A DNA stretch of 64,000 bases from Promethearchaeota archaeon (GTDB lineage Archaea; Asgardarchaeota; Lokiarchaeia; Sigyniarchaeales; SOKP01). The translations under genes and the position numbers were made by a program. The stretch is from contig JBHLLT010000002.1 of NCBI GenBank assembly GCA_048938855.1, positions 32,001 to 96,000 on the forward strand, in the 5' to 3' direction. The first letter of the stretch is position 1; each line of letters starts with the position of its first letter. Below the pieces are notes generated by a model. That model saw only the letters and a program-made list of their open reading frames with translations. It had not been told where the DNA came from and did no database searches. Positions 32,035 through 32,234 of this stretch are shown in pieces.

Positions 32035-32234
32035 TTAATCTTTTTTGAAAATATTACCACAATCGCCGCACTTCATATTTTTTGCATAGACTGGCGTGCC
32101 CTGCTTCAGCGGTAAGCTGAAATAACTTTACCTATACTATAGTAAAGCACGTTTTTCTTGTCTGATTCTTCATGAAGCTTACGTGGATTCTCATTGCCAC
32201 ATTGAGGACATTTTACTCTTTTGAATTCAGGCAT
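32035..32234 (-). CDS. Small zinc-ribbon protein (56 aa), spliced: exons 32234-32134 and 32104-32035; missed by the ORF track
   Basis: Spliced MPEFKRVKCPQCGNENPRKLHEESDKKNVLYYSMQGTPVYAKNMKCGDCGNIFKKD*; the two CxxC halves lie in different frames in the DNA. Confidence 0.72.
32105..32133 (-). other. Putative BHB-type mRNA intron (29 nt)
   Basis: Central helix TAGT/GCTG, bulges AT^A and AA^G, inner helix GGTAA/TTACC, exon helix GTGCTTT/AGGGCAC; contains the in-frame TGA. Confidence 0.72.

What the first reader, a model, noticed from the sequence alone, without database searches (positions are those of the whole stretch)
32035..32234. Hidden zinc-ribbon gene that exists only after removal of a 29-nt BHB intron
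Seen: an apparent intergenic gap encodes CPQC in one frame (ending in TGA) and CGDC in another. Between them, TAGT-AT^A-GGTAA...TTACC-GCTG-AA^G forms a 4-bp central helix, two 3-nt bulges and a 5-bp inner helix. The predicted cuts join AT+G into a Met codon (YYS-M-QGTP) and give a complete 56-aa C4 ribbon. This is a second, unrelated mRNA with the same intron type. Inference: BHB introns are not confined to one gene and can hide whole genes from annotation.
Basis: partly seen in the sequence, partly recalled or inferred. Interest (0 to 1): 0.9.

Follow-up and report, generated by a model that had tools for sequence, protein, structure and literature searches.

The report
tRNA-type intron splits Asgard zinc-ribbon gene
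A small protein gene of an Asgard archaeon (Lokiarchaeia) is broken by a 29-base insert shaped like the introns that the tRNA-splicing enzyme cuts out; relatives lack it at exactly the predicted cut points, so the message is almost certainly spliced, which the papers I could search document inside a coding sequence for only one other archaeal gene.

Summary
Confirmed. The minus-strand gene 32234-32035 is split by a 29-nt insert (32133-32105) that folds as a bulge-helix-bulge (BHB). Cutting at the BHB positions gives a 56-aa C4 zinc ribbon. 35 genomes of the genus carry a 29-nt insert at the same base, with 273/280 core pairs kept and compensatory changes. Dozens of syntenic orthologues lack it exactly and read YYSMQGTP. 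Exon 2 is under purifying selection in the spliced frame, and the Ser codon forming the helix is AGY in 35/35 carriers. A two-subunit EndA and RtcB are present. No RNA run was available, so splicing is inferred. Across Lokiarchaeia this 171-nt gene carries inserts at five sites; one is a near copy of this intron 17 nt downstream. The protein is the Loki-specific Zn domain also found on Loki gelsolin (2DGel). Corrections: databases do call a truncated 42-aa ORF here; the 3' bulge is relaxed; a BHB shape alone is common by chance. Closest known case: the crenarchaeal cbf5 intron. This scan found the same intron type before in other genes of this and other Lokiarchaeia genomes.

The parts
32241..32245 (-). 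Shine-Dalgarno-like AAGGA 6 nt upstream of the ATG
   Evidence: read from the sequence; consensus match only
32134..32234 (-). exon 1, 101 nt: codons 1-33 plus AT of Met34; first CxxC
   Evidence: third-position-biased divergence
32144..32150 (-). 5' arm of the exon-exon outer stem (7 bp, offset from the bulge by an internal loop)
   Evidence: 92.5% of cells paired
32136..32139 (-). 5' strand of the 4-bp central helix (UAGU; includes the Ser33 AGY codon)
   Evidence: 100% paired; AGY in 35/35 carriers
32133..32135 (-). 5' bulge AU^A; 5' splice site between 32134 and 32133
   Evidence: matches the junction of intron-less orthologues
32105..32133 (-). 29-nt intron: 5-bp helix (32132-32128 with 32115-32111), a second short stem and loop, 3' strand of the central helix GCUG (32110-32107); stops in both exon frames
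32104..32106 (-). 3' bulge AA^G; 3' splice site between 32105 and 32104
   Evidence: AAG 29, AGG 4, ACG 2 of 35
32035..32104 (-). exon 2, 70 nt: G of Met34, QGTPVY..., second CxxC, stop; 32102-32096 is the 3' arm of the outer stem
   Evidence: differences per site 0.10/0.12/0.47 at codon positions 1/2/3 in the spliced frame
32012..32027 (-). T-tract after the stop codon, a likely archaeal terminator
   Evidence: read from the sequence; inference

Best explanation
The insert is an archaeal endonuclease-spliced mRNA intron. The pre-mRNA folds into a relaxed bulge-helix-bulge. The cell's tRNA splicing endonuclease (EndA, probably an alpha2beta2 enzyme) cuts after the second base of each bulge, and RtcB joins the exons. 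The join makes the Met34 codon and restores the frame, giving a 56-aa Loki-type C4 zinc ribbon; unspliced RNA gives a 42-aa fragment with one CxxC. Shown here: fold, covariation, exact absence in orthologues, selection on the spliced frame, presence of the enzymes. Inferred: cleavage, ligation and protein product. The intron is most likely a tolerated passenger gained within this genus and kept because exact loss is rare, not a dedicated switch. The host protein is probably a small zinc-stabilised interaction module, since the same domain caps Loki gelsolin and unrelated proteins; its partner is unknown.
For: 35 genomes carry exactly 29 nt at CDS base 101. 273/280 core pairs are kept. Central helix 100% and intron helices 98.8% paired; 6 of 7 intron pairs show two-sided changes; 0/500 shuffles reach this; slid controls pair 26-53%. 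Syntenic intron-less orthologues next to shikimate kinase read YYSMQGTP. Ser33 is AGY in 35/35 carriers but mostly TCN in intron-less genes. Exon 2 evolves as coding sequence only in the spliced frame, and both CxxC are kept in 35/35. Two EndA genes, one with the Tyr/His/Lys triad and one lacking the His, and RtcB are present. Independent inserts at CDS bases 118, 122 and 125 in other genomes also restore the frame at BHB geometry.
Against: No spliced RNA or peptide was seen. The 3' bulge is not closed by an adjacent helix and the central helix has two G-U pairs here. Covariation counts come from related genomes and are not independent events. One insert family (site 131) does not fit canonical BHB geometry.
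Confidence: 0.93

Rival explanations
1. Programmed ribosomal frameshift or translational bypass yields a longer protein without splicing.
For: A hairpin sits between two frames; 29 nt is not a multiple of three.
Against: No shift window is shared: L016 stops in the exon-1 frame at intron base 5 and seven genomes at base 14, while L042 and L043 have a stop in the exon-2 frame at base 19. No slippery heptamer and no matched take-off and landing codons. The split Met codon is invariant in intron-less genes.
Confidence: 0.015
2. Pseudogene or assembly error: the gene is dead, or only the 42-aa N-terminal product matters.
For: Databases hold the 42-aa form; 27 of 35 genomes stop at the same place.
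Against: The same insert is in 35 separately assembled genomes and six metagenome contigs. Exon 2 is under purifying selection, and 8 of 35 genomes stop earlier, so the tail is not conserved.
Confidence: 0.015
3. The insert is removed, but by another route: precise DNA excision of a tiny element, or a nuclease other than EndA.
For: Intron-less alleles with near-identical exons exist; the site-131 and C25 inserts are hairpins without canonical geometry.
Against: The conserved pairing is exon-to-intron with G-U pairs and 3-nt bulges, an RNA-type EndA signature; cut sites fall after the second bulge base at four different sites. No terminal repeats at site 101.
Confidence: 0.03
4. Spliceosome-type (GT-AG) or self-splicing group I/II intron.
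For: The sequence AG|GTAAAG at the 5' end resembles a eukaryotic donor site.
Against: GT-AG cuts would remove 28 or 31 nt and not restore the frame; the GT is not conserved. 29 nt is far too short for a ribozyme (established knowledge).
Confidence: 0.005

Closest known systems
BHB intron of cbf5 pre-mRNA in Crenarchaeota (Watanabe 2002; Yokobori 2009, PMC2738675)
   Same: Short intron inside a coding sequence, relaxed BHB, cuts between the 2nd and 3rd bulge bases, splits a conserved codon, hetero-oligomeric EndA, patchy presence among relatives.
   Different: Different phylum and gene; cbf5 has one site and cDNA proof. Here one 171-nt gene has inserts at five sites across lineages, two genomes carry two introns, and other mRNAs of the genome are interrupted too. 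PMC7714728 (2020) names cbf5 as the only additional BHB intron reported.
[quoted passage not shown]
   Same: Same group of organisms, same motif and enzyme, repeated gains, introns missed by annotation.
   Different: Deals with tRNA only ('mRNA' has 0 occurrences) and finds almost no copying between sites; here one insert is a near copy of a neighbouring intron.
tRNA intron transposition in Thermoproteales (Fujishima 2010, as cited in the bioRxiv paper above)
   Same: Related intron sequences at different positions where the BHB can form, like the L019 copy.
   Different: Described for tRNA genes; here the copy lies in an mRNA, 17 nt from the source, and is a single case.
Loki Zn domain of Loki2DGel gelsolin and stand-alone small proteins (Akil 2022, PMC9433394)
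   Same: (CxxC)2, extended loop with tyrosine at its tip, stand-alone form, Loki-restricted; profile match to PDB 7whg_G residues 288-333, E 3.7e-8.
   Different: This is a distinct, highly conserved orthologous group (YYSMQGTP tip); the paper notes no intron and gives no function for the domain in the passages read.

Membership tests
Archaeal BHB (EndA-spliced) intron | 4-bp central helix between exon and intron | tested here: met
   100% of cells paired in 23 distinct rows; one mismatch among 35 genomes
Archaeal BHB (EndA-spliced) intron | 3-nt bulges on opposite strands, cut after the 2nd base, coinciding with the true exon junction | tested here: met
   junction of intron-less orthologues equals the predicted cut
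Archaeal BHB (EndA-spliced) intron | intron-side helix h' | tested here: met
   4-5 bp with two-sided changes at all four core pairs
Strict hBHBh' motif | exon-exon helix directly closing the 3' bulge | tested here: not met
   first outer pair is A.C in all 24 rows; stem lies 4 nt further out. Relaxed motif, as PMC2738675 reports for most cbf5 introns
Archaeal BHB (EndA-spliced) intron | EndA and RNA ligase encoded in the genome | tested here: met
Archaeal BHB (EndA-spliced) intron | cleavage by EndA and ligated mRNA observed | not testable with these tools
   no run id was available to lay reads on; no assay possible
Spliceosomal intron | conserved GT...AG ends that restore the frame | tested here: not met
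Programmed frameshift site | shared open window and slippery sequence | tested here: not met
Loki Zn domain (PMC9433394) | two CxxC pairs and an extended loop with Tyr at its tip | tested here: met
   four Cys and Tyr32 invariant; long hairpin E21-33/E39-47 in the model
Loki Zn domain (PMC9433394) | homology to the C-terminal domain of Loki2DGel | tested here: met
   7whg_G 288-333, E 3.7e-8; 97.9%
Loki Zn domain (PMC9433394) | zinc binding | not testable with these tools
   only modelled in the paper as well
Ribosomal protein S27e/S27ae or TFS (names given by some sources) | profile match over the family cut-off | tested here: not met
   all Pfam and NCBIfam scores under cut-off; structure matches Z <= 3.4

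The most novel reading that the evidence does not exclude
Lokiarchaeia hold a still-spreading population of EndA-spliced micro-introns in protein genes. They are gained repeatedly, can copy into nearby sites able to pair with the intron's 3' helix strand, and create multi-intron mRNAs with exons as short as 17 nt: intron proliferation in mRNA without a spliceosome, in close prokaryotic relatives of eukaryotes.
Probability: 0.6. Interest if true: 0.9.

Novelty: new variant of a known kind. Interest (0 to 1): 0.77.

Why it matters
It shows that archaeal mRNA splicing is not a one-gene oddity, and that small Asgard genes are being annotated as fragments. One tiny gene with inserts at five sites, including a copied intron, gives a compact system for the open question of how BHB introns arrive. 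It also offers a prokaryotic parallel to spliceosome-free mRNA splicing by endonuclease and RtcB (XBP1 type; own knowledge). The 56-nt substrate is directly testable in vitro.

Tried and rejected
Intron-less protein P0005 was traced in hope of a spliced transcript; its contigs span neighbouring genes on both strands and look genomic. An ab initio genome scan for BHB plus coding break gave no excess over five control bulge sizes (388 vs 350-396), so no genome-wide count comes from it. BLAST of the 24 introns against the own genome found no convincing second copy. Gain versus loss of the site-101 intron was not resolved (AU p 0.26; the first tree run timed out; the 150-nt gene tree is weak and includes the Ser codon). 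Site-122 and site-125 inserts are not detectably related to the site-101 intron. Fold searches gave only weak zinc-ribbon matches; the Atlas search gave leads only. P0073 (463 aa) in a cluster list is an unrelated protein, not a fusion. Literature searches found no report of Asgard mRNA BHB introns; subscription journals are not covered.

Full report
Setting. The window comes from a 3.95-Mb, 93-contig genome with tRNA-Sec and SepSecS and a Loki-type two-domain gelsolin. Orthologues are labelled Promethearchaeota or Lokiarchaeia in NCBI. It is a Lokiarchaeia (Asgard) genome. The gene lies on the minus strand between a GH57 gene and a membrane-protein gene, next to shikimate kinase.

Observation. 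Exon 1 (32234-32134) encodes the first CxxC; its frame runs into the insert and stops after 42 codons. The second CxxC is in another frame. Removing 32133-32105 joins AT and G into a Met codon and gives 56 aa. The region folds as described, and that fold is the minimum-energy one. The outer exon-exon stem is offset by an internal loop, so the motif is relaxed. Such shapes are common by chance, so the case rests on comparison.

Orthologues. The family was found in 127 of 154 genomes of the order. In the window's genus 35 genomes carry an insert of exactly 29 nt at CDS base 101. None of the orthologues examined from other genera has an insert at this site, nor do about a dozen genomes of the same genus; they read YYSMQGTP or a close variant with no extra residue. 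Their junction is the base that BHB geometry predicts, and in this genome the cut cannot slide. The shikimate kinase neighbour supports orthology.

Structure is what is conserved. The intron differs by 23% per site between genomes, yet 273 of 280 core pairs hold. On 24 aligned copies the central helix is 100% paired, the intron helices 98.8%, with two-sided changes at 6 of 7 intron pairs; no shuffle reaches the score and slid registers fall to 26-53%. These genomes are kin, so this is not a probability. The exon is constrained too: the Ser codon that forms the helix is AGY in 35 of 35 carriers but mostly TCN elsewhere.

The spliced frame is the functional one. Exon 2 differs by 0.10, 0.12 and 0.47 per site at codon positions 1, 2 and 3 in the spliced frame, like exon 1, and both CxxC are kept in all 35. 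The unspliced tail is not conserved: eight genomes stop earlier. No window for a ribosomal frameshift is shared. GT-AG cuts would not restore the frame.

Machinery. The genome encodes two EndA subunits, one with the catalytic Tyr, His and Lys by inspection and one lacking the His, and an RtcB. This fits the two-subunit enzyme reported for most Asgard genomes examined (bioRxiv 10.64898/2026.10.13.758758), the type that cuts relaxed motifs (PMC2738675; PMC5829648 abstract). Cleavage and ligation are inferred, not shown.

One gene, five intron sites. Other genomes carry frame-restoring inserts at CDS bases 118 (31 nt, L019), 122 (30-33 nt; L034, L035, L037, L148, L149, L151), 125 (30 nt, L012) and 131 (31 nt; L150, L153; not canonical). 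L012 and L019 have two introns. The second intron of L019 is a near copy of the site-101 intron (no shuffle of 300 as similar) and follows the same six exon bases, leaving a 17-nt exon. It differs by several bases and a 2-nt insertion, so it is not an assembly repeat. This suggests copying into a site that can pair with the intron's GCUG strand; the route (reverse ligation, or DNA duplication) is unknown. The three site-122 genomes in the tree are each sister to an intron-less genome with strong support, so that site changed state at least three times. For site 101 the shared sequence points to one origin; later exact loss is suggested by intron-less alleles nested among carriers but not established.

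Not the only mRNA. Using proteins from 1.2 Mb of a relative as a motif-free probe, about 223,000 aligned codon positions gave four clean breaks: this one, a 30-nt BHB in cdhC (acetyl-CoA synthase beta), a 30-nt hairpin on contig C25, and the second insert of rpl11 in this window. Removing both rpl11 inserts gives a 164-aa frame. This points to some tens of introns per genome, a rough inference from small numbers. Earlier agents of this scan reported the same intron type in many Lokiarchaeia genes; I treat those as leads.

Host protein. The model is a zinc ribbon with a long hairpin (pLDDT 81.5); the intron sits at the hairpin tip. No Pfam or NCBIfam family passes its cut-off. The profile matches the C-terminal domain of Loki2DGel, the Loki-specific Zn domain that PMC9433394 describes at the C-termini of gelsolins and unrelated proteins and as stand-alone small proteins. 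About ten paralogous domains occur in this genome. An interaction module is the likeliest role (inference); a link to actin is only a lead. Databases hold the intron-bearing alleles as 42-aa hypothetical proteins.

Verdict. A real endonuclease-type mRNA intron (0.93). The mechanism is known from cbf5; its occurrence in many Asgard mRNAs, with repeated gains and a copied intron in one small gene, was not found in the papers searched. New variant of a known kind; interest 0.77.

Noticed in passing
window 25456-25420 and 25398-25363 (- strand): rpl11 carries two inserts (37 and 36 nt); removing both gives a 164-aa frame. The first has a perfect 4-bp central helix, the second only 3 of 4 pairs.
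   Followed up: partly
L155 (G000:C49:457983, - strand): cdhC, acetyl-CoA synthase beta subunit, is broken by a 30-nt insert with a 9-bp intron helix and BHB geometry.
   Followed up: partly
L156:453-482 (G000:C25:37252, + strand): 30-nt stop-containing hairpin insert in the N-terminal DHGT motif of a probable sugar kinase; not canonical BHB geometry.
   Followed up: partly
L019 (G016:C20), exon 2 of the orthologue: Second intron (31 nt) is a near copy of the first, 17 nt downstream, after the same six exon bases.
   Followed up: yes
L148, L149, L151, L034, L035, L037: Site-122 inserts of differing sequence after the Val-Tyr-Lys codons; in L151 the intron ends with the same six bases as the exon before it, around a palindromic 4-mer, a possible hint of how introns are born.
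   Followed up: partly
L157:411-1436 (G000:C34): Loki two-domain gelsolin whose C-terminal Zn domain is homologous to the spliced protein.
   Followed up: yes
window 9348-9440 and 9453-10829: tRNA-Sec directly upstream of SepSecS.
   Followed up: no
window 35694-37010 (- strand): Three tandem paralogous double-zinc-ribbon membrane proteins (124-128 aa).
   Followed up: no
L150:58-535: Shikimate kinase next to an orthologue is called in two pieces (82 and 73 aa); may be another intron or a frameshift.
   Followed up: no
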